The notes beneath the pieces were generated by a model. That model had not been told where the DNA came from, made no database searches, and saw only the letters and a list, made by a program, of their open reading frames with translations. From assembly GCA_903910765.1 (NCBI GenBank), contig CAIWBA010000291.1, positions 147,492-211,491 on the forward strand: 64,000 nt of DNA, in the 5' to 3' direction. The stretch comes from an uncultured Bacteroidota bacterium (GTDB taxonomy: Bacteria; Bacteroidota; Bacteroidia; Chitinophagales; Chitinophagaceae). The first letter of the stretch is position 1. Each line of letters begins with the position of its first letter. Below, in pieces: positions 11,046-58,160 of this stretch. The position numbers and the translations under genes are program-made.

Positions 11046-12167
11046 TTATAGGTACGCCATGTCAAACATGGAATCGCTAAAATAGCTGTCAAGCCAAAGG
11101 TTAAATTCTTTAAGTGAATACTGGGAATCTCGGTCATGAATATAGCAAAATAGATCATTAATATCCTTAATTCGATTTAATGAAACTATGTCGTCAACTG
11201 AACTAAATTTTCTTTTTAAGTCACCAATTGCCTTATTCCATAGAAATACTGAATATCCTTGTTTAATAAAGTTCATCATTTGAGTTTTTCCAGCCTTGTC
11301 TCGGTCAAATAGGACTTGAGTTGCACCTTTTGCTCCAAGATTAGAAAAAATACTTCTGGCCTTTGATGCTCCAGATGTTGCAATTGCATTGTCTACAAAT
11401 AGAGAATCAAATTGGCCCTCAGTCATTCTGATTGGTTTACTGAAATCAATATTTAAGATATTAAAATAGTTGTTTAAGAAATTAGCATCCTCTACTAATT
11501 CTTTAGTTAAACCTTTTTGAGAAAATATTTGAGAAAGATCAGTATATGATTTAATAATATATTTACGCTCTGCATTTGGGTCAAGATTACGAATTGAGAA
11601 TCCTAATAATCTGCCAGAGCGCCTATCAAAATTAAAAATATAAACTTTATTATCGGATGAGTCGGTATAGAGGCAATCTCCAAAATCTTCAATTAAGTCA
11701 AGGCCTCTGCCTTTAATGTATTGATATGCCTTTGAAGTTTCGTCAACGAGATCTAGTCGTTTTAAGGAAAACCGGTTAACTACATCAGTTATTTTAACCA
11801 ATTGAGAAGTATCTGAAGTTAGGAATCGTACTAGTTGATTTTCAGTTCTTTTTACTGGAGCTGGTTTAAATTCATCTTCTAAAATAAAACTAGGCAACAT
11901 TATTCCATGCTGCTTACTCATTTTGGCTACAAATTCGCCAACTGTCATGTATGCCATGCAGCCATCGTTAAAACATTTATAGGCTCCAGTATCTAAATAG
12001 AGATTACCACGTTTCTTAGCAACTTTTTTATCAGAGTCTCCGCAAATTGGACATGCAAAATTTAATTTACGCCCAGTATCTCCATCAATTTTCTGTTTTT
12101 CCGGTACATCATGAAATCTTTTACGTAATAAGTTTTCAATGAATGCGGTTATTTCCTCAATCTTCAT
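11046..12167 (-). CDS. gp61: DNA primase (T4 gp61-like)
   Basis: Zn ribbon CPICGDS...YKCFNDGC; TOPRIM EGQFDS and FDRD. Confidence 0.88.
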   Translation of the reverse strand: MKIEEITAFIENLLRKRFHDVPEKQKIDGDTGRKLNFACPICGDSDKKVAKKRGNLYLDTGAYKCFNDGCMAYMTVGEFVAKMSKQHGIMLPSFILEDEFKPAPVKRTENQLVRFLTSDTSQLVKITDVVNRFSLKRLDLVDETSKAYQYIKGRGLDLIEDFGDCLYTDSSDNKVYIFNFDRRSGRLLGFSIRNLDPNAERKYIIKSYTDLSQIFSQKGLTKELVEDANFLNNYFNILNIDFSKPIRMTEGQFDSLFVDNAIATSGASKARSIFSNLGAKGATQVLFDRDKAGKTQMMNFIKQGYSVFLWNKAIGDLKRKFSSVDDIVSLNRIKDINDLFCYIHDRDSQYSLKEFNLWLDSYFSDSMFDMAYL

Positions 12168-13779
12168 CTGTTACTGGTACCTTCTTTACAGGTTTTGGTT
12201 TAGTTGCACTTTTATAAGCCTTTTCTAAATCGTATCCCAGTTTAGAATAGTCTTTTCCAGTTTTAACGACTTTTTCATATTTGTCAGTTTGTAACCATAC
12301 ACCTCCATCTGGTGGATTAATTTCAGTCCAACCGTTTTCAGCTAAATAAGCTTCCATAACCGCTTGTGGAATTGCAAAAGGATCTTCTACTTCAATACCC
12401 TTTTTCTTTGCAACTCTATCTCTATATTTAGCAAGTTCATGTTTTGGAACAATTACAGTATTTAGGCCATATTTAGAAATAGCTGAAATATAGATTGCAA
12501 ATAATTCTTGAGGTACTGGAATATCAGGATTACCAATAAATGCTTGGCAACTTTCTGGAATTTCGCAATATTCTAAAGTTTCAGTATTTACTGAATATAG
12601 TGGGAACGTTTCTTCTGGAGTAAAATCTTTACTGCGGCTTCTAGATTTAACTACTTCAATTTTTCTAGTTAATTTAGGAGTTAACTCAGTAAATCCAATT
12701 GCAACCAATAATTTATTAATTGGTTCAATAATTAATCTAAAGAATTGTTGTTCACGATCCATAGGTACTGCAATTTCTTCAGGATAAGAACCTGGAGCAT
12801 AGGCAAAAATATCAAAATCATATGCATTTTGAGCTGCATAATAAAATTTAATTTTTGAACCGCTACGAATTAGTGGATACTTTTGATTGTTAGTTAATTT
12901 AATTAGGTGATTATGATAGGCAACTGCTCTACCATAAATTGGCATTCCAGTTTCCAATACTAACGGAACTAAACTTTTTAGATATTCTTCATAAACTCTA
13001 ACTGAGAAGTTAAATGCAATTTCTTCAACTGGTAAAGCATCACATTCAGTTTTTAGAGCTGCTAGTTTTGGGATAAGATCGCCTTCTAAGTCAATATTAT
13101 AGCCAATATCAAGTAGATAAGAATATAATATTTGTAGATGCTGTCTTGCCCAAACTGGATATGATGCTTGAATTGCTTCGAGGCCTTTAATAATTAATGA
13201 CTCTTTATCTAAAAGACGTTCATGTTTATTATCTTTATATGAAACTTTTAAAATATATTTTTTCTTTGCTAACCAAATTCCAGATCTAGATAAATTTTCA
13301 AGTTCAAAATTTTGGCGATTATCTGTATTAAAGTGAACTGCATATTTTTCAAAAGCTTGTTCAAAATAATTCTTAAGTCGATGACGATTAATTGCCAAAC
13401 AAAATTCAAGAGATTGGGTATCAGTCAATTCAAATCCTTCAATTGACTTTATTGCATAGTCAAAACATACATAAACTGAGTCAGTGTCAGTATATACTGC
13501 AGCTTCTTTCTCAATTTGGTTAACCGTTCTTCCAGTAATACCTAATTTTTCATGCAGCTCTGTGTCAAGATGCCACTTTTGTTGGAAATAGTGGTTGATT
13601 GCCTTAATTGAAAATTTAATTAGGTCTTGGCCTTGCAGCGTAATTGACTGGGCAATATCGTTATTATGAAAATAGAAATATTTGTTACCAAATGCTCCAT
13701 AGAAAGAGTTAATTAAGATCTTTATGGCGTTCTGTTTTAAGTCTAGTGACTTTATTTGTGATTCTAGTTGTTTGGACAT
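12157..13779 (-). CDS. Family B DNA polymerase, C-terminal subunit
   Basis: Motif B (KILINSFYGAFG), motif C (YTDTDSVY), KKKY, IKGLE. Confidence 0.92.
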   Translation of the reverse strand: MSKQLESQIKSLDLKQNAIKILINSFYGAFGNKYFYFHNNDIAQSITLQGQDLIKFSIKAINHYFQQKWHLDTELHEKLGITGRTVNQIEKEAAVYTDTDSVYVCFDYAIKSIEGFELTDTQSLEFCLAINRHRLKNYFEQAFEKYAVHFNTDNRQNFELENLSRSGIWLAKKKYILKVSYKDNKHERLLDKESLIIKGLEAIQASYPVWARQHLQILYSYLLDIGYNIDLEGDLIPKLAALKTECDALPVEEIAFNFSVRVYEEYLKSLVPLVLETGMPIYGRAVAYHNHLIKLTNNQKYPLIRSGSKIKFYYAAQNAYDFDIFAYAPGSYPEEIAVPMDREQQFFRLIIEPINKLLVAIGFTELTPKLTRKIEVVKSRSRSKDFTPEETFPLYSVNTETLEYCEIPESCQAFIGNPDIPVPQELFAIYISAISKYGLNTVIVPKHELAKYRDRVAKKKGIEVEDPFAIPQAVMEAYLAENGWTEINPPDGGVWLQTDKYEKVVKTGKDYSKLGYDLEKAYKSATKPKPVKKVPVTDED

Positions 13780-18256: not shown

Positions 18257-18787
18257 ATGGAAAAACAAGTACACATTAATATATTTGACTTTGATGAAAC
18301 TCTATTTAGGGTTCCAGGTTATACATGCAGCCAAGCTAAAGATATGTCACCATACGAATGGTTTGATTCACCAGAATCTCTCGGCCATCAGTTTAATATT
18401 TGTGGAATTTCAAATACAATAGACAAAGTTAAGTCCAGTGAAGGTTGTCTAAATTATTTAGTAACTCACAGAGTAAAAGAGTGTCAAGAGGCAGTTATGG
18501 ACCTGTTATCAGTAAACCAGATTAAATTTGATGATGTATTCTTTTTAGGTAGAGAAACTGCTAAATCAGATACTGTAATTGAACTAGTTCGTCAAACCTC
18601 AGCTACTTCAATTACAGTATATGAAGATTCTCTTTGGGAAATCATTAAATATGCAAAAGTATTTAGCGATTTAGAAGTTACCATGAATTTTGTATTTGTA
18701 GATAAAAGTAAGGTAATTACAATTGACTGGGATACAGCATGTTCATTAGCAGATTATTCACAATCAGAAAGACTTAAATTAATATGA
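18257..18787 (+). CDS. HAD-superfamily phosphatase
   Basis: Motif I IFDFDETL, later T-HR and YEDS motifs. Confidence 0.8.
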   Translation: MEKQVHINIFDFDETLFRVPGYTCSQAKDMSPYEWFDSPESLGHQFNICGISNTIDKVKSSEGCLNYLVTHRVKECQEAVMDLLSVNQIKFDDVFFLGRETAKSDTVIELVRQTSATSITVYEDSLWEIIKYAKVFSDLEVTMNFVFVDKSKVITIDWDTACSLADYSQSERLKLI

Positions 18788-19392
18788 TCCTATTTGTAGA
18801 AGGTGCAAGACACTGTGGAAAAACATTCCTAATTAACCAGTTTATTGATAGTACGCATGATCCAAGAATTGAATATTATAAATTCTATTTCGCAGACCAT
18901 ATTAAAACATTAGACCTAGTAGGTTTAGATGGTGATCCTAGCCTTCACTATTTTAGTTTAGGTAATATTATGACCATTATGGAAATGAATCTTAGACCAG
19001 AATATTCTGACAAAATTTGGATATTTGACAGAGCAATAATATCTGCATATACTTGGGCAATCTTAAGAAACCGATTAAATAGAGATAAAGCAGAAACTGA
19101 ATTTCTAAAGTTATTAAATACTACTCTATACTCAAATTCAAAAACGCTAGTAGTTAAAGTCTCTGGCCAAACTGGTGACACAAATAGAGTTAAAGATACT
19201 TGGGATGGAGCTCATTCTACTACTGATGAACAGCAGTTAATGAATGAGTTAACTACACTAGGTCTTTCAAATCTTACTGATTCAACAAAAAATAACAATT
19301 TACGCACAGTTTTTAACAAGTTTGATGAATCTTCAATACTTAAATTTAATCATGAGTGCCGTGCGTTATTAGGAATAGAGCCTAATAAATAA
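18784..19392 (+). CDS. P-loop nucleoside monophosphate kinase-like protein
   Basis: EGARHCGKT Walker A and IFDRAIIS (DR motif of thymidylate-kinase family); ATGA overlap with the HAD gene. Confidence 0.8.
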   Translation: MILFVEGARHCGKTFLINQFIDSTHDPRIEYYKFYFADHIKTLDLVGLDGDPSLHYFSLGNIMTIMEMNLRPEYSDKIWIFDRAIISAYTWAILRNRLNRDKAETEFLKLLNTTLYSNSKTLVVKVSGQTGDTNRVKDTWDGAHSTTDEQQLMNELTTLGLSNLTDSTKNNNLRTVFNKFDESSILKFNHECRALLGIEPNK

Positions 19393-41596: not shown

Positions 41597-41624
41597 AAAA
41601 AAGGGACTCTATTGTCCCTTTTTT
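41597..41624. terminator. Bidirectional terminator
   Basis: AAAAAAGGGAC-TCTATT-GTCCCTTTTTT at a strand switch. Confidence 0.8.
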
Positions 41625-42010
41625 AATATGTCTACTCCAGCTAATTCCCCAATCTCTAACTCAGAATCAATTAGATGAGGAACAAATGTAATTGTTGAAT
41701 ATGCAGTATTTAGAAATTTAACTGCATTATTAATATTACTTGCACTAAGTCCAGCATTAACATAAATTATTCGATTATATTTTCGATTTCTTACATTAAT
41801 TGCTTTATCAATTAACTTCTTAATTTCATAATTAATTAGAAAGGACTGAATTTTATTTGGTACAAGGATTTCTTGGTCAAATTTTTCTTTAATGATCTTA
41901 TTTACATTTAGTAAATAGTCACATTTTTGTTTTTTGATAAAAAGTTGAATGAATTGTTTTTGATCTTTTACGAAAATTATTTCGAGAGTACGATCTACTG
42001 AATCTATCAT
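41609..42010 (-). CDS. Hypothetical protein
   Basis: 133 aa; ATGA overlap with dCMP deaminase. Confidence 0.65.
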   Translation of the reverse strand: MIDSVDRTLEIIFVKDQKQFIQLFIKKQKCDYLLNVNKIIKEKFDQEILVPNKIQSFLINYEIKKLIDKAINVRNRKYNRIIYVNAGLSASNINNAVKFLNTAYSTITFVPHLIDSELEIGELAGVDILKKGQ

Positions 42011-42462
42011 AATGAATCACGGTCGATTTTTTTAACCTCAACACCAGCACGACGTAAAAAATCTAAGCCCTTTATATCTCGGTATTCATCAAGATATACA
42101 ACTCGTTTAATACCTGCCTGTAGAATTAATTTGCTACAATCTGTGCATGGAGAATAGGTGATGTATAGTGTTGCGCCATCGCTACTTTGAGTAGACTTAG
42201 CGACTTTTGCTAATGCATTGGATTCGGCATGTAGAACATACCATTTAGTTTTATATTCTTTAAATGAACCATCTTCATTATTAACAGCTTCTTCGCATTC
42301 ATTTTCAAAACCAGAAGGAGTTCCATTAAATCCATCAGATATAATTGTATTATTTTTTACAATTAAGGCTCCAACTTTTTTTCGGGTTGCATGAGATAAC
42401 TCTGCCCAAACTTGAGACATTTTAATATAAGCTATATCTATTTTATGTTGTTTTTGAGACAT
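42007..42462 (-). CDS. cd: dCMP deaminase
   Basis: KVGALIVK, GFNGTPSG, HAESNAL, SPCTDC. Confidence 0.92.
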   Translation of the reverse strand: MSQKQHKIDIAYIKMSQVWAELSHATRKKVGALIVKNNTIISDGFNGTPSGFENECEEAVNNEDGSFKEYKTKWYVLHAESNALAKVAKSTQSSDGATLYITYSPCTDCSKLILQAGIKRVVYLDEYRDIKGLDFLRRAGVEVKKIDRDSL

Positions 42463-43349
42463 TATAGTTTAGGTTGATAAGTTTTATCATATATCCATTT
42501 AATTAAGTCTTCGCCATCTTGAAATAAGATAATATCATTAGAAGCTGATGTAACTAAATTAAATAAGGTTTTAAAATCATCAGTCTGACTTCCATCTATT
42601 TCAATTAGATCTGAAACAATTGGAGGTAATGTAACCGGTTTAAATTCTTCAGCAATAAGTCGGGTTGCAATATCATAGTGTCTATCATATACATGATATG
42701 AGTTTGCAACATGAGTATAGGTTCCTAATTCAAGATCTGGATAAAAATGTTTTAGGTGAGATAATATTTGCATTTGTAATGAACAGAAAAAGGCAACGTC
42801 AGTTGAGGTTCCCCATATTGCATCATTACTTCTCATAAATACACTCATATACAGTTTATTTTGTCTAATATGTAAATTTGCATACATAGTACAAACAAAA
42901 TCTTTATTTGAAGAATATTGGTGTTTTGGTTTATTAAAATGTAATACTGCCTGTCTGGTATTTTGATCAGTTGCTAGACTCTGAATAGCCCATTGATATT
43001 GACTAATTGCATGCTCATTCTTTTCAGTAAAGATTAAGTTTCCATATGCTGAATTGGCAGTTCCATCAATATTCTGAATCTCTTCCCAGAATTTAGCCCA
43101 TTTTGAAATGAATGCTACATCATTTCGGCCTGCATAATACCATAAAAATTCAGCAGCAATATATTTTTGCTGAGAACTTCTAACTGGATTTTCATAAAGG
43201 CATTGAGTCGGATCTTCAATAACTAGCGCAACATCTAATAATTCTTTACTAGTGGTACCTCTAGCATTATTAATGATTCCATCAGTTAATAAAAACTTAA
43301 TTGAATCTTTATATGCATCAGCAAATGTTAAACCTTTAAATACAATCAT
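42462..43349 (-). CDS. Thymidylate-synthase-fold enzyme, dCMP hydroxymethylase (T4 gp42)-like
   Basis: AEFLWY, NSAYG, TRQA, DFVCT, MRSNDAIWGTSTD, SYHVYDRH; Asp at the pyrimidine-specificity position. Confidence 0.75.
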   Translation of the reverse strand: MIVFKGLTFADAYKDSIKFLLTDGIINNARGTTSKELLDVALVIEDPTQCLYENPVRSSQQKYIAAEFLWYYAGRNDVAFISKWAKFWEEIQNIDGTANSAYGNLIFTEKNEHAISQYQWAIQSLATDQNTRQAVLHFNKPKHQYSSNKDFVCTMYANLHIRQNKLYMSVFMRSNDAIWGTSTDVAFFCSLQMQILSHLKHFYPDLELGTYTHVANSYHVYDRHYDIATRLIAEEFKPVTLPPIVSDLIEIDGSQTDDFKTLFNLVTSASNDIILFQDGEDLIKWIYDKTYQPKL

Positions 43350-43433: not shown

Positions 43434-45095
43434 TTAAATGATAGTTAAGTCTGAGAAATGGTCAGTATTTTCAACCTGGATCTTTGTGTCAAAATATTCT
43501 TCAGGAAGAGGATCATGCGAAATTACAAATACTGTCATATTGTACTTCTTTGAAAATGTTTTAAGAAGATCAACTACTCTAAATATTGAGTCAACATCTA
43601 ATGAAGAAAATACTTCATCTAGGAATAGAAGATTTACTTTATTATGCTTTAATTTAATTAATTCAAGAATACACAAAAGAACAATTAAATTCATTTTCTT
43701 TTGTTCTCCAGAAGATAGAGAGTCTGGTGAAACTTGCATTCCTAAATGGGTAATAATTGGATTAAATTCAAGATCAAACTCAAATGCAAATTTGAATTCA
43801 AGAACTTTAGCGGTCTTTAAGATCTTTTTATTTAATAATGGAATAATTTGACTCATTAACATACGCTTCATTCCATTGTCGGATAAGATCATTTCCATTT
43901 CTTGAGAAATCTTTAGTTTATCAGATTGGCTGGCTAGACTTATACCTGCTGTGTTTATTTCAGTTTCAATATTTTTAATTACTTCAACTAAATGTTTGTC
44001 TGAGGTTTGTTTACCTTGTTGAGATAATTGTTGAATTTCTCTTTTTGCAGCAGATAGTTGAGCATCAATTTTATAAAACTTGTCTTTTGCGATATTTTGA
44101 TTAGAGTCAATTGTAGATAATGAAGATTCAAATCCTTTAATTGTTTGAGAAACCGTTGGAATAGAGGACTCTTGAGTCTCTTTTAATTTAAGCAGTTTCT
44201 CTTTTATTTGACCATGAATCTCATCAGTTAAGTCAGATAAACAATGTGGACACTTATTTTTGTTGTAAAGATCAAGTTTCTTTTGTATTTCAGAAACATT
44301 TGCCCTAATGGTAGTAAGATCATCACGAGAAGTTCGAACCTTTATTTGTAGATCAGAGATCTTAGCCGTAAAACTACTTGCCTCAACTCTAGCAGACTCT
44401 TTAGATTCAACTAGTTTTGCTAATTCTCCAGTAAGTTCTTCAATTCTGGCTGTATTGGTTGCCTGTATTTCATTTTTTAAATTTTCAAGTTGATTAACTG
44501 ACGATTCTAATAATCTTTGGTTACTTGCAATTGAAGATTCAAGTGGAGTAATTTCTCCTCTTACTTTTTTAGTATCTTCTTTTGCAATTTTAGACATATC
44601 ATTAACTATATCTAATCCAAAAATTTTATCAATGATTTGGCGTTTATCTGCTGGACTAAGTTTAACAAAACTTTTAAAATCATTTACTGATAGGCTAATT
44701 GTATTTGAAAATACGTTAAATGGTAACTTAGTTAATTCATCTTCGATAAAATCATCAACTCGTCTCTTATCTGGTAAATTATATTCAGCTCCATCAATTG
44801 AAAGCTTTGAAAAGTTAGGTTCAAGTCCGCGCTCTATATCAATTAGTCGGCCATTACCTGTTGTAAATTTAATTTGAGTATAGGCATTCTTATTAATGCG
44901 GTTTGGAATCTCCTTGGTTTTACGGATTGCTGACTTTCCATAAATTGCAACAGTTAATGCATCAGATATTGATGATTTTCCACTACCATTTTTTCCTTGA
45001 ACTAATATTAGCCTAGGTTCATCAGTAAATTTAAAAGTTTGTAGTTTATTGCCGTATGAGCAAATATTTCTAAAGGAAAATTCGTGTATCTTCAT
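43434..45095 (-). CDS. gp46: Rad50/SbcC-like ATPase (T4 gp46)
   Basis: GKNGSGKS, CPHC hook, LSSGEQKK, LFLDEVF, ISH. Confidence 0.93.
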   Translation of the reverse strand: MKIHEFSFRNICSYGNKLQTFKFTDEPRLILVQGKNGSGKSSISDALTVAIYGKSAIRKTKEIPNRINKNAYTQIKFTTGNGRLIDIERGLEPNFSKLSIDGAEYNLPDKRRVDDFIEDELTKLPFNVFSNTISLSVNDFKSFVKLSPADKRQIIDKIFGLDIVNDMSKIAKEDTKKVRGEITPLESSIASNQRLLESSVNQLENLKNEIQATNTARIEELTGELAKLVESKESARVEASSFTAKISDLQIKVRTSRDDLTTIRANVSEIQKKLDLYNKNKCPHCLSDLTDEIHGQIKEKLLKLKETQESSIPTVSQTIKGFESSLSTIDSNQNIAKDKFYKIDAQLSAAKREIQQLSQQGKQTSDKHLVEVIKNIETEINTAGISLASQSDKLKISQEMEMILSDNGMKRMLMSQIIPLLNKKILKTAKVLEFKFAFEFDLEFNPIITHLGMQVSPDSLSSGEQKKMNLIVLLCILELIKLKHNKVNLLFLDEVFSSLDVDSIFRVVDLLKTFSKKYNMTVFVISHDPLPEEYFDTKIQVENTDHFSDLTII

Positions 45096-45589
45096 TAATT
45101 TAAAAAATAGGTAAGTTCTTCGTCTGGATCAATATCTTGTACTGTGTAAAATTTATATAGTTTCTTCTCAACATCGTAATCCCAATTAATATTAGGAGTT
45201 GCAGATCTTCGGTAAATTGAACCAAACCCTAATAGGATTGCATGAGAGTTAATATGTAAAAATTTAGTTGGATTTACTACGTCATATACAATTGCTTTAA
45301 ATTGGTCAGTTGTAATAAGTCCTCTATCTAATCTTTCCTGTAAATCAAGTTCAGCAAGTTTTTCTCCAATTTCACGTTCTTTACGAATACCGTCTGGATT
45401 AACAAATAATCTACCATCTAATACTTGATCGTGGTTTTTAAGTAGAAGTTGAGTTTTTTGGCTTATTGGAATCCATGCACAAAATTCAATAGTAGAATTT
45501 CTATGGATTTGAGAACTACTAAATACTCCATATTCTTTAGCATTAATAGGTTTCACATATAAACTAGATAGGATACTTGGATTACTCAT
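45095..45589 (-). CDS. Degenerate SET-domain protein
   Basis: YGVFSSSQIHRNSTIE; GFGSIYRRSATPN in place of NHS..PN; DIDPDEELTY. Confidence 0.7.
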   Translation of the reverse strand: MSNPSILSSLYVKPINAKEYGVFSSSQIHRNSTIEFCAWIPISQKTQLLLKNHDQVLDGRLFVNPDGIRKEREIGEKLAELDLQERLDRGLITTDQFKAIVYDVVNPTKFLHINSHAILLGFGSIYRRSATPNINWDYDVEKKLYKFYTVQDIDPDEELTYFLN

Positions 45590-46697
45590 CAGTTGCTTGT
45601 TGTTTTACTAAATTATGAATTTCAATAAATTTTTGGGCTAATTCAGTTTTAAAGGTTTGAGAATATGACTTTGTTCTTAAAAAGCTTTTAAATATATCAA
45701 TTACATTAAACTGATCTTCTGGATCAAAATCTACTGCAGTAGAAGACTCATCTGTTACTTGATCAACATATGTAAAAAATTCAACCTTTCGATGAGTTGA
45801 CTTTGAAATAAGTTCTAAAAATCTGGTAACTGAGAACTTATTAACAAAATTTACACTAATCATAATATCAACAAATGAATTATTTAATTTTTCAATTACT
45901 TCATCTGCTGGCATTTCTAATAGCTCAAATATGTCAAACTTCTTATATACTGGAGAATGTGTATTTTCTATAAATGTTTCAGTTAAGACTGGAGTTGTAA
46001 CATCTAATTGATAAAAGCCTTTGGTATTACCTCTATCTCCTCTATCCATTTGATATGGAGTACCAGTATAGAGAACATTTTTAAATTCTTGACGATGGTG
46101 AATATGTCCTGCATAAACTCGTTTATATGAGGTTAACATATCAACTTCAATACCATGTTCAACTTTAGTCCATTTATTAAATCTTAATCCTTTAATATCT
46201 GCATGACATACAATATATTCACATAAGTCTTTATGGTCAGTTATTATCTGATTAAGTCGATTTGTATCTTCAACCCATGGTAACATTAGAAAATTATGCG
46301 ATCCGTTTATTGTAATAATTTCAGGATTTTCAAATACATGAATATTATCAGCAATATGTGAAATTGACTTTAATGAATGGACTACATTTCTGTCTTTATA
46401 GTAAACATCATGGTTTCCTATAATAATATAGATTCCACGTTTAAATTTTTGAGAAAGTTGCTTAAAGATCGTTAATGCTTCATCATGTACTCTAACATTA
46501 ATAGATTCCCTAGAATGAAATACATCTCCTTCTAAAAATAGAATATCTCTATCTTCATCAAAGTCTTCATCAACTTTATTAATTAAAAAGTCTAATAGAA
46601 AATCCTTTTGTATTTGGATCCACTCTATTGAATTATTTTTAATACCTAAATGTAAGTCTCCAACTAATGTTATTTTTCTAATATTGGTAAGCTTCAT
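45582..46697 (-). CDS. gp47: Mre11/SbcD-like nuclease (T4 gp47)
   Basis: GDLH, GDVFH, GNHD, GHIH, YTGTPYQ. Confidence 0.93.
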   Translation of the reverse strand: MKLTNIRKITLVGDLHLGIKNNSIEWIQIQKDFLLDFLINKVDEDFDEDRDILFLEGDVFHSRESINVRVHDEALTIFKQLSQKFKRGIYIIIGNHDVYYKDRNVVHSLKSISHIADNIHVFENPEIITINGSHNFLMLPWVEDTNRLNQIITDHKDLCEYIVCHADIKGLRFNKWTKVEHGIEVDMLTSYKRVYAGHIHHRQEFKNVLYTGTPYQMDRGDRGNTKGFYQLDVTTPVLTETFIENTHSPVYKKFDIFELLEMPADEVIEKLNNSFVDIMISVNFVNKFSVTRFLELISKSTHRKVEFFTYVDQVTDESSTAVDFDPEDQFNVIDIFKSFLRTKSYSQTFKTELAQKFIEIHNLVKQQATDE

Positions 46698-46698
46698 A

Positions 46699-47367
46699 TT
46701 AAAATATTTTATAGTTCTTACCCATTCCGTCTAGAAATCCATATTTGCTATTTAACTCAATTAATAAGAGCTCCTTATTTTCATAAGTTAGCATATCAAA
46801 TATTTTTTTATATTCCATATTAAGAGTTGATGAAATTGATTCTAATACCTGGATTGGTGTAATAAAAACAGTTGTATTTGATCCAACTGTTAATCCCTTT
46901 AAAATTATACTAAATATTTGATTTATTTGTGGTTTAGTAAATTTTTGTTTCTCAGGCTCATCACCTAGAATCACTTGTAGTTCATCACAACTTTGTATAA
47001 AGTTATATATGTCTCTTTGAACAATAGTATAGTCTACATGATCTGCATATCGATCTGGGTCAGACATTGCAAATTCAGCAGATCCACTCTCTAATTTAAT
47101 AGCAGAAGAAGCTTTTGAAGAATTATCATCTTCATCATTAGTTTCATATCCTAAATTATAAGTATTTCCAAAAATTTTATCATTTCTTTTTAGATCAGAA
47201 TAAGCAACTCGACGTCTTTCAAGTTCTTCATCATCGTATTCTCCTTCAGCTAGAGGCTCATCATCAAAATGAGAGTCATCTTCATGAAATTCAAGGGTAT
47301 CATCTTGTTCTATTGTTAAGTCAGTATCTAGATCTGAGAAATCGTCTGGGTGTTTTCTTGGTGCCAT
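46699..47367 (-). CDS. Hypothetical protein with acidic N-terminus
   Basis: 222 aa between gp41 and gp47; C-terminal helical domain, possibly gp33-like (weak). Confidence 0.65.
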   Translation of the reverse strand: MAPRKHPDDFSDLDTDLTIEQDDTLEFHEDDSHFDDEPLAEGEYDDEELERRRVAYSDLKRNDKIFGNTYNLGYETNDEDDNSSKASSAIKLESGSAEFAMSDPDRYADHVDYTIVQRDIYNFIQSCDELQVILGDEPEKQKFTKPQINQIFSIILKGLTVGSNTTVFITPIQVLESISSTLNMEYKKIFDMLTYENKELLLIELNSKYGFLDGMGKNYKIF

Positions 47368-51712: not shown

Positions 51713-53095
51713 TTAAGAAGTTTTTTCACTTGACAATTGCTCTTCTAATTTTTTCATTTCATTTTTGGTATTTACACGACCATTATATAATCTGGTAAGA
51801 ATTGTTCTAGCAGCTGAATCTGTTTTATTTGTGAAGACTGTATTATTTTTAGTTAATATTTGATCAGGTTGTAATTCAATACCTTCTCGCATTTTTCCTA
51901 AGTATGCATCTGGAGAAATATTAAACTGAATTTGGATATTTGGATACATTGAAGCAAAGTCAAAACACGAAACATATTTGTAATATCCTGGTTCTGGTTT
52001 AGCTACGTATGCACCATCATATGTTGCATCAGCTTCTAATTCTCTTCGATCATTTGCCATATACCTACCACGATCTAAGAATTCACGACACATTAAAGAT
52101 TCAGTAATGAATACTGCTGAGAATACTTTTGAAACATCAACTTTTGCAAATTTTGATATTGCAAATGCTACATCAAGTAGTCCAAGTTTATCTTCAATTA
52201 GTTTAATAAGAACTGTATCAATAATGTTATATTTAATAAAGTTTTCAATATCTTGTTGAGCTTCCATCATTGTTGCATATTCACTATGTAATTTAGTTGT
52301 TCCTAATACTAAGTTTGCAATATACTCTAATTTATAATTTTCAACTACTTTATATGGTTTAGTATTCATAAATACTTCCATGTAATCCAAAAGGCCTAAA
52401 TGAATTGGCATTTTTGATTTACCAATTAAGGTTTTAGATGGCATGGTTTTCATTGGATCAATATCTAAATTCTTACATCGATTAATTAGATAAATCCAGT
52501 CAAATCCAATAACATTCCAACCAGTTAAGAATGGAATTTTTGGAAGAGCTTTATGAAAAAATGCTTTCATTAATTCTACTTCTGTTTCAAAGAACATATA
52601 TTTAAGAGTAAAGATTTGACCATGTGCTTTAAAATAGTCATTCACTTCATCTTGCATTTGTAGAATTGGAGCTTCGTCTAATTTCTTCATGGTTGACATT
52701 ACGAAACAAACATTCTCTTCATTAACAAAAGTAATTAAGTTAACTGGCATTGCTGCTTTTGCTGGATCAGGAAACTCTTGTGAAGTTAACTGAATCTCAA
52801 TATCTAAATAGAATTTCTTTGGGCTGTCATCAGAATAGATTGAAGCAATTTCAGTTTCATTTAATCTGGTTTGAGTTAATTCTTCAAGTCTAAAACGGCT
52901 TAACCATTTACCTTGAACCTTTTTTACAAACTTTCCATCCCAGTTACGGTGTTCAGTTGGAGTAGGCGTTAAGTTCCAATTGTAAAGATCATGTGGAACA
53001 ATTGGTTTCTTCATAAATCCAATTGTTCCATCTGGTTTATAATAAGAAATAACTAGAGTCGAGTCTTCTGTGTGAAATTCTGTGCTTACTATCAT
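51713..53095 (-). CDS. Family B DNA polymerase, N-terminal subunit (3'-5' exonuclease plus motif A)
   Basis: YLDIE, GWNVIGFD, YNIIDT, YDGAYV, FDFASMYPNI, NISPD. Confidence 0.92.
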   Translation of the reverse strand: MIVSTEFHTEDSTLVISYYKPDGTIGFMKKPIVPHDLYNWNLTPTPTEHRNWDGKFVKKVQGKWLSRFRLEELTQTRLNETEIASIYSDDSPKKFYLDIEIQLTSQEFPDPAKAAMPVNLITFVNEENVCFVMSTMKKLDEAPILQMQDEVNDYFKAHGQIFTLKYMFFETEVELMKAFFHKALPKIPFLTGWNVIGFDWIYLINRCKNLDIDPMKTMPSKTLIGKSKMPIHLGLLDYMEVFMNTKPYKVVENYKLEYIANLVLGTTKLHSEYATMMEAQQDIENFIKYNIIDTVLIKLIEDKLGLLDVAFAISKFAKVDVSKVFSAVFITESLMCREFLDRGRYMANDRRELEADATYDGAYVAKPEPGYYKYVSCFDFASMYPNIQIQFNISPDAYLGKMREGIELQPDQILTKNNTVFTNKTDSAARTILTRLYNGRVNTKNEMKKLEEQLSSEKTS

Positions 53096-53113: not shown

Positions 53114-53593
53114 TTAATAACCTCTTTGTTGGCGAGCTTTATTCTCTTCATTCTTTGCCATATACATATTAAACATCTCCTGTGGAGTCATTCCAACTGA
53201 TATTGCATAGTTCATAAAGAAGTGTAACATATCAATAATTTCAAATTTGCACTCAGTTTGGTCAACTTCTGATAAATCTGAGAACTTTTTGTCAGAATAT
53301 TCTTCATGAGCAACTTTCCAACGCTTCCAAATTGCATTTCCTGAACCATCTTTAATTCCGCCTAATGCATCAGTGGCTTCGTGAATTTCATCTATCATTG
53401 CATGATTATTCATGTGCCAAAAGGTCATAAGTTCACGAAGTGTCATGTTTTCAAAGTCATATCCATATACATTCCTTTGGGTATCAGCCTGGACGATCAT
53501 AATTTGACCTAATGTATCTTCATTTGATTTGGTAGCTTCTGACCAAGTGTCTTTAATTTCTAAGTTTGCGCAAGAGTTGTCTATATTTGCCAT
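53114..53593 (-). CDS. All-alpha dimeric dUTPase/dCTPase (gp56/MazG-like)
   Basis: DEIHEATDA, WKRWK, FEIIDMLHF, YMAKNEENKARQ. Confidence 0.85.
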   Translation of the reverse strand: MANIDNSCANLEIKDTWSEATKSNEDTLGQIMIVQADTQRNVYGYDFENMTLRELMTFWHMNNHAMIDEIHEATDALGGIKDGSGNAIWKRWKVAHEEYSDKKFSDLSEVDQTECKFEIIDMLHFFMNYAISVGMTPQEMFNMYMAKNEENKARQQRGY

Positions 53594-57262: not shown

Positions 57263-57835
57263 TTAGTCTGCAAGTCCCATAATTTCTTCAAGAACCCTAA
57301 TTGAGTCAGTTGAATCATTATGTAAAATACCAGTTCCACCAGCATCTGTCCACTTATTTAATTTTGTATCAAAGTCATCAATTAGGATATCGTATGAATC
57401 TCTAGCATACTTCCATTTTTCTTGATCTAATACAATTCTAGTACTACTAGTAAAGTCTTCAGGATTAGTAACTGGAACCTCATCAATATGTAAGTGTAAT
57501 TTAATCCATTTTGCTTTACCAGCTAAACATTCAGGACTTTGGCTAGGAGCAGATAAGATAATTGGATTATATTGTTTTAAGTAGTCCCATAATTCTCTGC
57601 CGTCTTTTGTCCATGGTAGGTCTGCCCAAAAATCTTCGCCTAATGTATCTAAGATTGGCCAAATCGAATTTTTGCCATTTGCCTTTTCATACTCATATGG
57701 AGAAAGTTTTTCAGGGTTTTCAGAAATTTCCATAAAACCTCGGTTAAAGTCAACTAAGACTCCATCTAAATCACAAAAAATTGTGTATTTTCCGCCTCTT
57801 TTTTCAAAGAGAAATTGTTTAAATTTTTTAAGCAT
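57263..57835 (-). CDS. HAD 5'(3')-deoxyribonucleotidase-like protein with capsid-targeting-like N-terminus
   Basis: IFCDLDGVLVDF, ILSAP, GKAKW, ILIDD; start MLKKFKQFLFE. Confidence 0.8.
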   Translation of the reverse strand: MLKKFKQFLFEKRGGKYTIFCDLDGVLVDFNRGFMEISENPEKLSPYEYEKANGKNSIWPILDTLGEDFWADLPWTKDGRELWDYLKQYNPIILSAPSQSPECLAGKAKWIKLHLHIDEVPVTNPEDFTSSTRIVLDQEKWKYARDSYDILIDDFDTKLNKWTDAGGTGILHNDSTDSIRVLEEIMGLAD

Positions 57836-58160
57836 TTTCTTTAAGTTCAAATTGTGTATCTTGATCCTTATTTATTATAGCTAATAGATCATTTGCTATT
57901 ACTAAGTGATAGCCTACTCCATCCCATGTTACATCAAGGCCTGAATATCTTTGGTATAAAACTTTATCTCCAGCTTTAACTGGACAACCTGAATTATTAG
58001 GAACTGCATGTCCTACTGAGATTACGGTTCCGGTATTTGGGCGTTTACGTGCATCAACTGATAAAATAATACCTGTTTCTGTTTTTTTCTCTACTGTATC
58101 TGGTAAAACCAGAAGTCTTTCGAATAGCGGCTGAAAGCCTGTTTTAATATCAACACTCAT
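57828..58160 (-). CDS. groES: Co-chaperonin GroES-like (functional analogue of T4 gp31)
   Basis: PLFERLLV, KTETGIIL, GTVISVG, VKAGDKVLY..YSG, DLLAII. Confidence 0.9.
   Translation of the reverse strand: MSVDIKTGFQPLFERLLVLPDTVEKKTETGIILSVDARKRPNTGTVISVGHAVPNNSGCPVKAGDKVLYQRYSGLDVTWDGVGYHLVIANDLLAIINKDQDTQFELKENA

What the first reader, a model, noticed from the sequence alone, without database searches (positions are those of the whole stretch)
42007..43349. Thymidylate synthase homologue has the cytosine-specific Asp: probable modified-cytosine genome
Seen: the motif reads MRSNDAIWGTSTD. Aligned to E. coli ThyA RSCDVFLGLPFN, the Asn177 position is Asp. DFVCT, NSAYG and SYHVYDRH resemble T4 gp42 (DFMCT, NSNYG, SLHVYSRH). 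Known: Asn selects dUMP and Asp selects dCMP in this fold (T4 dCMP hydroxymethylase and related dCMP methylases/hydroxylases). Seen: the window also encodes a gp56-like dUTPase/dCTPase, an NMP kinase and a HAD nucleotidase, the support enzymes needed to replace dCTP. Inference: the DNA may contain 5hmC, 5mC or 5-hydroxy-C, possibly hypermodified, for restriction and CRISPR evasion. Caveat: the gene is translationally coupled to dCMP deaminase, a pairing typical of true thymidylate synthases.
Basis: partly seen in the sequence, partly recalled or inferred. Interest (0 to 1): 0.72.

Follow-up and report, generated by a model that had tools for sequence, protein, structure and literature searches.

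The report
Phage dCMP hydroxymethylase, T4 gp42 type
A 254-kb freshwater jumbo phage carries, besides an ordinary thymidylate synthase, a second enzyme of the same fold whose active-site residues match T4's dCMP hydroxymethylase, so it probably replaces cytosine in its DNA with 5-hydroxymethylcytosine: a known anti-restriction trick in a phage group where it had not been noted.

Summary
Window 42462-43349(-) encodes a 295-aa thymidylate-synthase-fold protein. The ORF at 42007-42462(-) is a dCMP deaminase whose start overlaps its stop (TAATG).

At the diagnostic positions (E. coli ThyA numbering) the protein reads 143 D, 146 C, 147 T, 167 S, 169 D, 177 D. This equals T4 gp42. It differs from ThyA (L/C/H/S/D/N), the RB69 5-hydroxy-dCMP synthase (169 N), MilA (167 A) and the XP12 TS homologue (143 N). 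All 40 aligned close family members keep these residues.

The nearest solved structures are MilA and T4 dCMP hydroxymethylase. In the tree it falls in a supported clade with gp42, apart from true TS.

The same 254-kb phage contig also holds a canonical Asn-type ThyA and a T4 gp56 homologue (dCTPase/dUTPase). All three relatives that are at least 93% complete keep both.

Published metagenome work links TS homologue plus dCMP deaminase to cytosine-modified contigs.

Not found: a gp1-type kinase, a T4-type glucosyltransferase, a carbamoyltransferase, or the claimed NMP kinase in the window.

Verdict: a new member of a known kind, most likely making 5hm-dCMP. Whether the virion DNA is modified, and whether it is hypermodified, remains untested.

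The parts
42462..43349 (-). 295-aa thymidylate-synthase-fold enzyme, predicted dCMP C5-hydroxymethylase of the T4 gp42 type. Key residues: E67, Y102, R132, D150 (ThyA L143), C153 (C146), T154 (H147), R173, S174, D176 (D169), D184 (N177), H219, Y221.
42007..42462 (-). 151-aa dCMP deaminase with the zinc motif HAE...PCxxC. Its start overlaps the stop of the TS-like gene (TAATG).
   Evidence: (phrog_174 at 2.3e-49). The pairing is conserved in relatives.
41609..42010 (-). 133-aa protein of unknown function, third gene of the unit. It has an ATGA overlap with the deaminase and is followed by a hairpin plus T-run.
   Evidence: No family or PDB match. An ORF of 123-133 aa sits in the same place in relatives.
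53114..53593 (-). 159-aa all-alpha NTP pyrophosphohydrolase, a homologue of T4 gp56 (dCTPase/dUTPase). It is the only dUTPase-like gene found on the phage contig.
   Evidence: 2e-22; 78.6 bits, 38% identity; no trimeric dUTPase; 81-87% identical copies in 3 of 3 near-complete relatives
57263..57850 (-). 195-aa HAD-family 5'(3')-deoxyribonucleotidase. Its role in the pathway is not established.
   Evidence: (phrog_2643 at 6.4e-24)

Best explanation
The ORF at 42462-43349(-) is a folate-dependent dCMP C5-hydroxymethylase of the T4 gp42 type. The proposed mechanism, by analogy with gp42:
- Cys153 attacks C6 of dCMP.
- Asp184 (the ThyA N177 position) reads and protonates N3/N4 of cytosine, which selects dCMP over dUMP.
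- The one-carbon unit of 5,10-methylene-THF is transferred to C5.
- Asp150 sits where ThyA has Leu143, and there is no conserved C-terminal lid. Water is therefore not excluded, so the exocyclic methylene is hydrated rather than reduced.
- The products are 5-hydroxymethyl-dCMP and THF.

Ser174 and Arg132 indicate a 2'-deoxy substrate.

The enzyme sits in a T4-like pyrimidine kit on one 254-kb jumbo-phage genome:
- a gp56 homologue, expected to hydrolyse dCTP/dCDP (and dUTP) to the monophosphate;
- the translationally coupled dCMP deaminase, expected to divert part of the dCMP to dUMP;
- a separate canonical ThyA, expected to make dTMP. This suits a genome of about 33% GC.

A kinase must take hm-dCMP to the diphosphate. 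It has not been identified; a guanylate-kinase homologue is the only candidate found. The expected result is virion DNA with 5hmC in place of C, which would shield it from restriction enzymes.

What is shown here: the fold, the residues, the paralogy, the gene neighbours and their conservation. What is inferred: the substrate, the product, the roles of the partner enzymes and the DNA content.
For: (1) Residue signature. Positions 143/146/147/167/169/177 read D/C/T/S/D/D, identical to T4 gp42. They are invariant in 40 of 40 family members.

(2) Published rules.
- N177D gives dCMP specificity, acidic 143 goes with a hydroxymethyl rather than methyl product, and D169N marks 5-hydroxy-dCMP synthases (PMC13326640).
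- Positions 177 and 147 are the most discriminating between cytosine-modified and unmodified contigs (PMC8670742).
- Ser167 and Arg126' select deoxyribose (PMC5175136).

(3) Solved structures. The best sequence matches are MilA at 8.6e-21 and T4 dCH at 6.5e-15, against true TS at 1e-9 or weaker. The AF2 model (pLDDT 93) superposes best on MilA (TMq 0.80) and then T4 dCH.

(4) Curated TS models. NCBIfam TS equivalog scores are 29-59 bits against cut-offs of 108-405.

(5) Tree. Canonical TS form a separate clade (99). The query lies in a 96-supported clade with T4 gp42. XP12, MilA, SPO1 gp29 and RB69 gp48 fall outside it.

(6) Paralogy. The same contig has a canonical ThyA (289 bits, L143/H147/N177, KAPLSN tail). 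All 3 relatives at least 93% complete have both. There is no ThyX.

(7) A gp56 homologue is present and conserved.

(8) An experimentally studied relative. Enterococcus phage VPE25 has the same signature at 36% identity. Its DNA resists bisulfite conversion, and the authors report that the genome is modified to avoid restriction digestion (PMC4999554).

(9) Weak circumstantial support. C-containing 4-mer palindromes are depleted in the host-bin contigs (mean O/E 0.83) but not in the phage (0.99).
Against: - There are no biochemical or DNA-composition data for this phage or any close relative.
- No gp1-type dNMP kinase was found. A kinase that accepts hm-dCMP is needed for full replacement.
- No T4-type alpha/beta-glucosyltransferase or carbamoyltransferase was found.
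- The methyl-versus-hydroxymethyl rule at position 143 is correlative. XP12 has Asn there, not a bulky hydrophobic residue.
- T4 gp42, XP12, MilA, SPO1 gp29 and RB69 gp48 all sit on long branches, so tree placement is soft.
- The top structural match, MilA, is a ribonucleotide enzyme.
- A gp56 homologue could serve only as a dUTPase.
Confidence: 0.72

Rival explanations
1. It is a dCMP methyltransferase as reported for Xanthomonas phage XP12. The exocyclic methylene would be reduced and the DNA would carry 5-methylcytosine.
For: Asp at the 177 position is shared with the XP12 enzyme. XP12 also has a deaminase-like ORF beside its TS homologue. The position-143 rule is only a correlation.
Against: Position 143 is Asp, as in all the known hydroxymethylases compared, whereas XP12 has Asn. 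XP12 branches outside the clade that holds the query and gp42, and it is closer to the canonical TS by phmmer. The C-terminal tail is unconserved, while reductive TS chemistry depends on a conserved closing C-terminus (the role of the C-terminus is from general knowledge of ThyA). There is no DHFR on the phage.
Confidence: 0.08
2. The hydroxymethylase and the coupled deaminase act in series (dCMP to hm-dCMP to hm-dUMP). The phage would then install 5-hydroxymethyluracil or a thymidine hypermodification rather than a cytosine modification.
For: There is tight translational coupling of the two genes, conserved across relatives. That dCMP deaminases can accept 5-substituted dCMP is my own recollection and was not checked here.
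Against: The phage keeps a canonical ThyA in all near-complete relatives. That is pointless if thymine is being replaced. It also has a gp56-type dCTPase homologue, which fits removal of dCTP. No 5-hmU kinase or other thymidine-hypermodification family was seen in the Pfam scans.
Confidence: 0.05
3. It is a flavin-dependent 5-hydroxy-dCMP synthase of the RB69 gp48 / DLP3 gp80 type, the starting point for glycosylated 5-hydroxycytosine.
For: It has the same fold, Asp at 177 and an acidic residue at 143. The contig encodes a GT-A fold glycosyltransferase.
Against: The diagnostic D169N substitution (PMC13326640) is absent. Asp176 is invariant in 40 of 40 family members. RB69 gp48 is only 27 bits from the query and lies outside its clade.
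Confidence: 0.03
4. It acts on a ribonucleotide (CMP) or another non-DNA substrate, as MilA and BcmA do, or it is a redundant true thymidylate synthase.
For: MilA is the best sequence and structure match, including the C-terminal extension.
Against: The MilA ribose determinants Ala176 and Lys133' are Ser174 and Arg132 here, the deoxy-type residues. The gene lies among replication and recombination genes next to a dCMP deaminase. For the true-TS reading, positions N177, L143, H147 and the C-terminus all differ, the scores are far below the curated TS cut-offs, and a real ThyA is already present.
Confidence: 0.04

Closest known systems
T4 gp42, deoxycytidylate 5-hydroxymethyltransferase (PDB 1B5D/1B5E/6A9A)
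   Same: It shares the TS fold and identical residues at ThyA positions 58, 94, 143, 146, 147, 166-169, 177, 207 and 209. The genome partners are also the same: a gp56 homologue, a dCMP deaminase and a separate canonical TS.
   Different: Only 27% identity over 202 residues. The query is 49 residues longer, with a MilA-like C-terminal helical extension. No gp1 kinase or alpha/beta-glucosyltransferase homologues accompany it. The gene is fused into one unit with the deaminase and an unknown 133-aa ORF.
MilA, CMP 5-hydroxymethylase of Streptomyces rimofaciens (PDB 5B6D/5JNH)
   Same: It is the best sequence match (8.6e-21) and structure match (TMq 0.80, about 306 aligned columns), with the same Asp177-, Asp143- and Cys146-type residues.
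   Different: MilA has Ala176 and Lys133' for ribose. The query has Ser and Arg, as deoxy-specific enzymes do. MilA works in antibiotic biosynthesis, not phage DNA synthesis.
TS homologue of Enterococcus phage VPE25/VFW
   Same: 36-37% identity and the same D/C/T/D/D signature. The phage DNA is experimentally cytosine-modified: it resists bisulfite conversion, and the authors report it is modified to avoid restriction digestion (PMC4999554). It also carries a member of the same GT-A family, phrog_4417.
   Different: VPE25 has a T4-like beta-glucosyltransferase and a dUTPase beside the gene and no second, canonical TS. It is an 86-kb siphovirus of Firmicutes.
RB69 gp48 / DLP3 gp80, 5-hydroxy-dCMP synthases (PMC13326640)
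   Same: TS fold, Asp at 177 and an acidic residue at 143.
   Different: They carry Asn at position 169 and use a flavin and O2. The query keeps Asp169.
TS homologue of Xanthomonas phage XP12 (dCMP methyltransferase; XP12 DNA carries 5mC per PMC8670742)
   Same: Asp at 177 and a neighbouring deaminase-like gene.
   Different: It has Asn143 and Pro147. It is more TS-like by sequence, sits in a separate tree position, and is the only TS homologue in that phage.

Membership tests
T4 gp42-type dCMP hydroxymethylase (5hm-dCMP synthase) | Thymidylate-synthase fold | tested here: met
   PF00303 at 2.2e-20. AF2 model pLDDT 93; Foldseek probability 1.00 to MilA, T4 dCH and TS.
T4 gp42-type dCMP hydroxymethylase (5hm-dCMP synthase) | Catalytic Cys (T4 C148 / ThyA C146) and general base Glu (T4 E60 / ThyA E58) | tested here: met
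   C153 and E67 are aligned and invariant in 40 of 40.
T4 gp42-type dCMP hydroxymethylase (5hm-dCMP synthase) | Asp at the ThyA N177 position (T4 D179), conferring cytosine specificity | tested here: met
   D184; invariant.
T4 gp42-type dCMP hydroxymethylase (5hm-dCMP synthase) | Acidic residue at the ThyA L143 position (T4 D145), letting water reach the methylene intermediate | tested here: met
   D150 is invariant. The rule is from PMC13326640.
T4 gp42-type dCMP hydroxymethylase (5hm-dCMP synthase) | Asp kept at the ThyA D169 position (folate chemistry, not the flavin hydroxylase type) | tested here: met
   D176 is invariant. The rule is from PMC13326640.
T4 gp42-type dCMP hydroxymethylase (5hm-dCMP synthase) | Ser167 and Arg126' for 2'-deoxyribose selectivity | tested here: met
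   S174 and R132. The rule is from PMC5175136.
T4 gp42-type dCMP hydroxymethylase (5hm-dCMP synthase) | Catalysis: dCMP + 5,10-CH2-THF + H2O gives hm-dCMP + THF | not testable with these tools
   Needs an enzyme assay.
Canonical thymidylate synthase ThyA (EC 2.1.1.45) | Asn177, Leu143, His147, a conserved C-terminal lid, and scores above the curated equivalog cut-offs | tested here: not met
   The query has D, D and T at those positions. The C-terminal tail is unconserved. NCBIfam scores are 29-59 bits against cut-offs of 108-405.
5-hydroxy-dCMP synthase (RB69 gp48 type) | Asn at the ThyA D169 position | tested here: not met
   Asp176.
CMP hydroxymethylase (MilA/BcmA) | Ala at ThyA S167 and Lys at R126' | tested here: not met
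   Ser174 and Arg132.
T4-type cytosine-replacement pathway (system level) | dCTPase/dUTPase of the gp56 family | tested here: met
   Window 53114-53593(-) against T4 gp56: 78.6 bits. Its specificity for dCTP was not tested.
T4-type cytosine-replacement pathway (system level) | dNMP kinase that accepts hm-dCMP (gp1 type) | tested here: not met
   No phmmer hit to T4 gp1. phrog_139 gives only a P-loop-level hit. A guanylate-kinase homologue at C291:42515-43000 is an untested candidate.
T4-type cytosine-replacement pathway (system level) | DNA alpha/beta-glucosyltransferase acting on 5hmC | tested here: not met
   No hit to T4 or VPE25 beta-gt. No GT Pfam family was found in the scanned ORFs of 140-450 aa. 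One GT-A fold protein of unknown acceptor was found.
T4-type cytosine-replacement pathway (system level) | Separate canonical TS plus a dCMP deaminase for the dTMP supply | tested here: met
   ThyA at C291:49564-50892. Deaminase at 42007-42462. Both TS genes occur in 3 of 3 near-complete relatives.

The most novel reading that the evidence does not exclude
The 5hm-dCMP made here may be only the first step of a downstream chemistry not yet described. The phage group lacks gp1-type kinase, T4-type glucosyltransferase and carbamoyltransferase genes. It does conserve three unexplained items: an unknown 133-aa protein translationally coupled to the hydroxymethylase-deaminase pair, a guanylate-kinase-like NMP kinase, and a GT-A fold glycosyltransferase (phrog_4417, no Pfam family) that VPE25-type cytosine-modified phages also carry. 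A new kinase solution, and/or a new GT-A class DNA glycosyltransferase giving a novel glycosyl-5hmC in Bacteroidota jumbo phages, is not excluded.
Probability: 0.15. Interest if true: 0.62.

Novelty: new member of a known kind. Interest (0 to 1): 0.4.

Why it matters
If the prediction holds, a widespread lineage of roughly 250-270 kb freshwater jumbo phages replaces cytosine with 5hmC. Their hosts are probably Bacteroidota, and their capsid protein is nearest to those of the 'huge phage' LR756500 and the Lak megaphages.

That would extend T-even-style cytosine replacement to a new host phylum and phage lineage. It would affect how these genomes behave in restriction-based, bisulfite/EM-seq and nanopore workflows. 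It would also help explain how such phages escape restriction systems that read cytosine.

The value is mainly in annotation and ecology. Databases call this gene 'thymidylate synthase', which is very likely the wrong function. The enzyme class itself and its residue code are already established.

Tried and rejected
- Direct read-level evidence for modification. Only Logan contigs of lake-water metagenomes hold the locus, with no nanopore runs and no RNA runs. Neither modification signals nor expression could be examined.
- T4 gp1, T4 beta-gt, VPE25 beta-gt and sugar-synthetase-like protein, RB69 and phage G thymidylate kinases, and VPE25 dUTPase, by phmmer against all 310 ORFs of the contig. 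No hits even at E<=10.
- phrog_139 (dNMP kinase) across the whole bin. Only P-loop-level noise.
- DHFR (PF00186). Found only on host-like contigs.
- ThyX. Absent.
- Pfam scan of the 140-450 aa ORFs of the contig, submitted as concatenated strings. No glycosyltransferase or carbamoyltransferase family, no trimeric dUTPase, no further NMP kinase. ORFs under 140 aa or over 450 aa were not scanned, and a few in-window ORFs in that size range were skipped or scanned only in other calls.
- The 133-aa coupled ORF. No Pfam, PHROG or PDB match.
No family or PDB match.
- The GT-A protein as a DNA glycosyltransferase. Weakened, because the same family occurs in 36-40 kb Firmicutes phages (phiFL1A, iLp84, bIL285), which are not among the listed TS-like hits.
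- Membership of the published bS21-encoding Bacteroidetes phage clades (PMC9723584). A motif search found no S21-like ORF on the contig.
- Searching the NCBI record behind locus L027 for a second TS. That record is not held.
Full report
**What is there**

The window is positions 147492-211491 of contig C291 of a 2.5-Mb, 338-contig bin. C291 is 254,203 bp at 33% GC. Every other contig is 43 kb or shorter, at about 36% GC.

C291 carries T4-type genes:
- a Gp23-family capsid protein;
- gp46/gp47-like SbcCD;
- a DnaB-family helicase (PF03796 in relatives' copies; also matched by T4 gp41);
- UvsX;
- gp32;
- a split family-B polymerase.

Relatives in IMG/VR are 253-271 kb, and one has direct terminal repeats and is rated 100% complete. 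C291 is therefore a nearly complete jumbo-phage genome binned with a bacterium, not bacterial chromosome.

The exact protein also occurs on lake-water metagenome contigs. A phage ORF with a T9SS sorting domain suggests a Bacteroidota host. So do the nearest capsid relatives, LR756500 at 39% and the Prevotella Lak phages at 33%. The host assignment remains an inference.

**The observation**

ORF 42462-43349(-) encodes 295 aa and ORF 42007-42462(-) encodes 151 aa. The stop of the first overlaps the start of the second (TAATG). A third ORF, 41609-42010(-), overlaps the second by ATGA and is followed by a hairpin plus T-run.

The first ORF matches PF00303 at 2.2e-20 but with only 73 bits. It falls far under every NCBIfam thymidylate-synthase equivalog cut-off. 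The second is a dCMP deaminase (PF00383 at 7e-22; phrog_174 at 2.3e-49).

**Which member of the fold is it**

Against all PDB sequences the order of matches is:
- MilA CMP hydroxymethylase, 8.6e-21;
- T4 dCMP hydroxymethylase, 6.5e-15;
- true thymidylate synthases, only 1e-9 and weaker.

An AlphaFold model built on 40 homologues (pLDDT 93) superposes best on MilA (TMq 0.80), then on T4 dCH.

I aligned the protein with experimentally characterised enzymes and read off the published diagnostic positions:

| Enzyme | 143 | 146 | 147 | 167 | 169 | 177 |
|---|---|---|---|---|---|---|
| Query | D | C | T | S | D | D |
| T4 gp42 | D | C | T | S | D | D |
| E. coli ThyA, host-bin ThyA, RB69 td, the phage's own second TS | L | C | H | S | D | N |
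| SPO1 gp29 (dUMP hydroxymethylase) | D | C | N | S | D | N |
| MilA | D | C | T | A | D | D |
| XP12 TS homologue | N | C | P | S | D | D |
| RB69 gp48 (5-hydroxy-dCMP synthase) | E | C | T | S | N | D |

The rules come from three papers:
- PMC13326640: N177D gives dCMP specificity, acidic 143 goes with a non-methyl product, and D169N marks the flavin-dependent 5-hydroxy-dCMP synthases.
- PMC8670742: positions 177 and 147 best separate cytosine-modified from unmodified metagenome contigs.
- PMC5175136: Ser167 and Arg126' select deoxyribose, whereas Ala and Lys in MilA favour ribose.

The query meets every gp42-type criterion and fails the defining criterion of each alternative. The residues are invariant in 40 of 40 aligned close homologues. 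The last roughly 15 residues are not conserved, so there is no TS-like closing C-terminus.

Of the 144 nearest 50%-identity cluster representatives, 138 share D/C/T/D/D. This is a very large family: 6330 representatives at E<=1e-3.

In an IQ-TREE (LG+C20) tree the canonical TS form their own clade (SH-aLRT 99). The query lies in a clade of support 96 that contains T4 gp42 and excludes XP12, MilA, SPO1 gp29 and RB69 gp48. All the characterised references are long branches, so I weight the residue code more heavily than the topology.

**Genomic context**

The same phage contig has a canonical ThyA at C291:49564-50892. It scores 289 bits, has L143/H147/N177, ends in ...IKAPLSN, and carries two insertions. 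There is no ThyX.

All three IMG/VR relatives that are at least 93% complete carry both genes. The Asp-type enzyme is therefore not the phage's thymidylate synthase.

Window 53114-53593(-) is a genuine homologue of T4 gp56, the dCTPase/dUTPase (phmmer 2e-22; BLASTP 78.6 bits, 38% identity). It is 81-87% conserved in those three relatives. No trimeric dUTPase was found.

The gene order gp47, SET-domain protein, gp46, TS-like, deaminase, unknown ORF of about 130 aa is kept in a relative at 62% identity. At 56% identity the order is the same but without the SET-like ORF.

That does not follow:
- T4 has both gp42 and a dCMP deaminase (from general knowledge of T4).
- Phage G and XP12 have a deaminase beside their Asp-type homologues.
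- PMC8670742 found TS, dCMP-deaminase and MazG-like pyrophosphohydrolase domains co-occurring on cytosine-modified contigs.

A related enzyme with the same signature (36% identity) belongs to Enterococcus phage VPE25. Its DNA was shown experimentally to resist bisulfite conversion, and the authors report that the genome is modified to avoid restriction digestion.

**What is missing or uncertain**

- No gp1-type dNMP kinase.
- No T4-type glucosyltransferase.
- No carbamoyltransferase or any Pfam glycosyltransferase family among the scanned ORFs of 140-450 aa.
- No DHFR on the phage.
ORF 18784-19392 has a Walker A motif but no family or PDB match.
- A clear guanylate-kinase homologue lies outside the window at C291:42515-43000 (phrog_1815 at 2.6e-34; 64 bits to mouse GK). 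It is the only candidate for phosphorylating hm-dCMP, and this is untested.
- One protein, C291:248300-249253 (phrog_4417, no Pfam family, invariant YHDSD), folds as a GT-A glycosyltransferase (pLDDT 91; the top 50 Foldseek hits are all glycosyltransferases, though TM is only 0.4-0.5).
- That GT-A family is also present in VPE25-type phages. It also occurs in 36-40 kb Firmicutes phages (phiFL1A, iLp84, bIL285) that are not among the listed TS-like hits. Its acceptor may therefore be a protein or cell-wall polymer rather than DNA.

**Circumstantial signal**

With a maximal-order Markov expectation, C-containing 4-mer palindromes are depleted in the host-bin contigs (mean O/E 0.83; ACGT 0.68, TCGA 0.74, GGCC 0.77). 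On the phage they sit at expectation (mean 0.99), with CATG (0.80) the only clear exception. This fits a genome that does not need to avoid cytosine-reading restriction sites. It is weak evidence, because the host link is only by binning.

**Conclusion**

The most likely reading (about 0.7) is a T4 gp42-type dCMP hydroxymethylase working within a T4-like pyrimidine kit, giving 5hmC-containing virion DNA.

Rival readings:
- dCMP methylase, 0.08;
- hm-dCMP deaminated to hm-dUMP, 0.05;
- 5-hydroxy-dCMP synthase, 0.03;
- ribonucleotide substrate or redundant TS, 0.04.

The enzyme class, its residue code and its abundance in viromes are already published. The finding is therefore a new member of a known kind in an uncultured phage lineage, and a correction of the database label 'thymidylate synthase'. 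The open points are the kinase, any further decoration of 5hmC, and the conserved 133-aa partner.

Noticed in passing
G000:C291:49564-50892 (+), outside the window: The phage's canonical ThyA is 442 aa. It has two insertions (about 50 aa after the W80 region and about 35 aa after the catalytic Cys segment) and a long pre-C-terminal insert, yet it keeps all catalytic residues and an ...IKAPLSN tail.
   Followed up: partly
G000:C291:248300-249253 (+) = L025:8301-9254: A 317-aa protein of phrog_4417 (annotated as unknown function; no Pfam family; more than 2000 homologues) is predicted to be a GT-A fold glycosyltransferase with an invariant YHDSD motif. It lies among tail genes. The family also occurs in VPE25-like phages and in 36-40 kb Firmicutes phages.
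   Followed up: partly
G000:C291:244356-245708 (+): An Amidoligase_2 (PF12224) protein of 450 aa is embedded in the tail/baseplate gene block, two genes upstream of the GT-A protein.
   Followed up: no
window 45095-45589 (-): A SET-domain protein (PF00856 at 1.6e-6) sits between the gp46-like and gp47-like nuclease subunits. A 164-aa ORF occupies the same place in the relative at 62% identity.
   Followed up: no
G000:C291:56183-57193 (+): A phage ORF with a histone-deacetylase-family domain (PF00850 at 2.9e-16).
   Followed up: no
G000:C291:91051-91500 (+): A phage-encoded SmpB homologue (PF01668 at 6e-43), the tmRNA partner protein.
   Followed up: no
G000:C291:114534-115193 (+): An ORF matching Tad6, a type I Thoeris inhibitor (PF25188 at 1.7e-20). 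It is next to a metallophosphoesterase.
   Followed up: no
G000:C291:21536-22162, 72764-73714, 75603-76331: Three sigma-70-family proteins are encoded by the phage. The contig also encodes PhoH, ClpP (123232-123900), PRPP synthetase (101735-102724), UvdE (45813-46787) and a serine-recombinase/resolvase-domain ORF (82044-82787).
   Followed up: no
G000:C291 ends (1-130 and 254075-254203): Both contig ends lie in a Gly/Ser/Thr-rich collagen-like repeat (GSSGTSG...), and 30-50-mers from one end recur near the other. The assembly probably broke inside a repetitive fibre gene.
   Followed up: no
whole contig C291 against the other contigs of the bin: C-containing 4-mer palindromes are under-represented in the host-bin contigs (mean O/E 0.83) but not in the phage (0.99). 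CATG (0.80) and TATA (0.88) are the depleted words in the phage.
   Followed up: partly
window 12157-13779 (-) and 51713-53095 (-): T4 and RB69 gp43 match two separate ORFs about 38 kb apart (phmmer).
   Followed up: no
L014 (Xanthomonas phage XP12, MT664984.1:43943-47656): XP12 has a single TS homologue (Asp177, Asn143) with a deaminase-like ORF directly beside it, and no canonical TS. Its dTMP might therefore arise by deamination of 5-methyl-dCMP.
   Followed up: no
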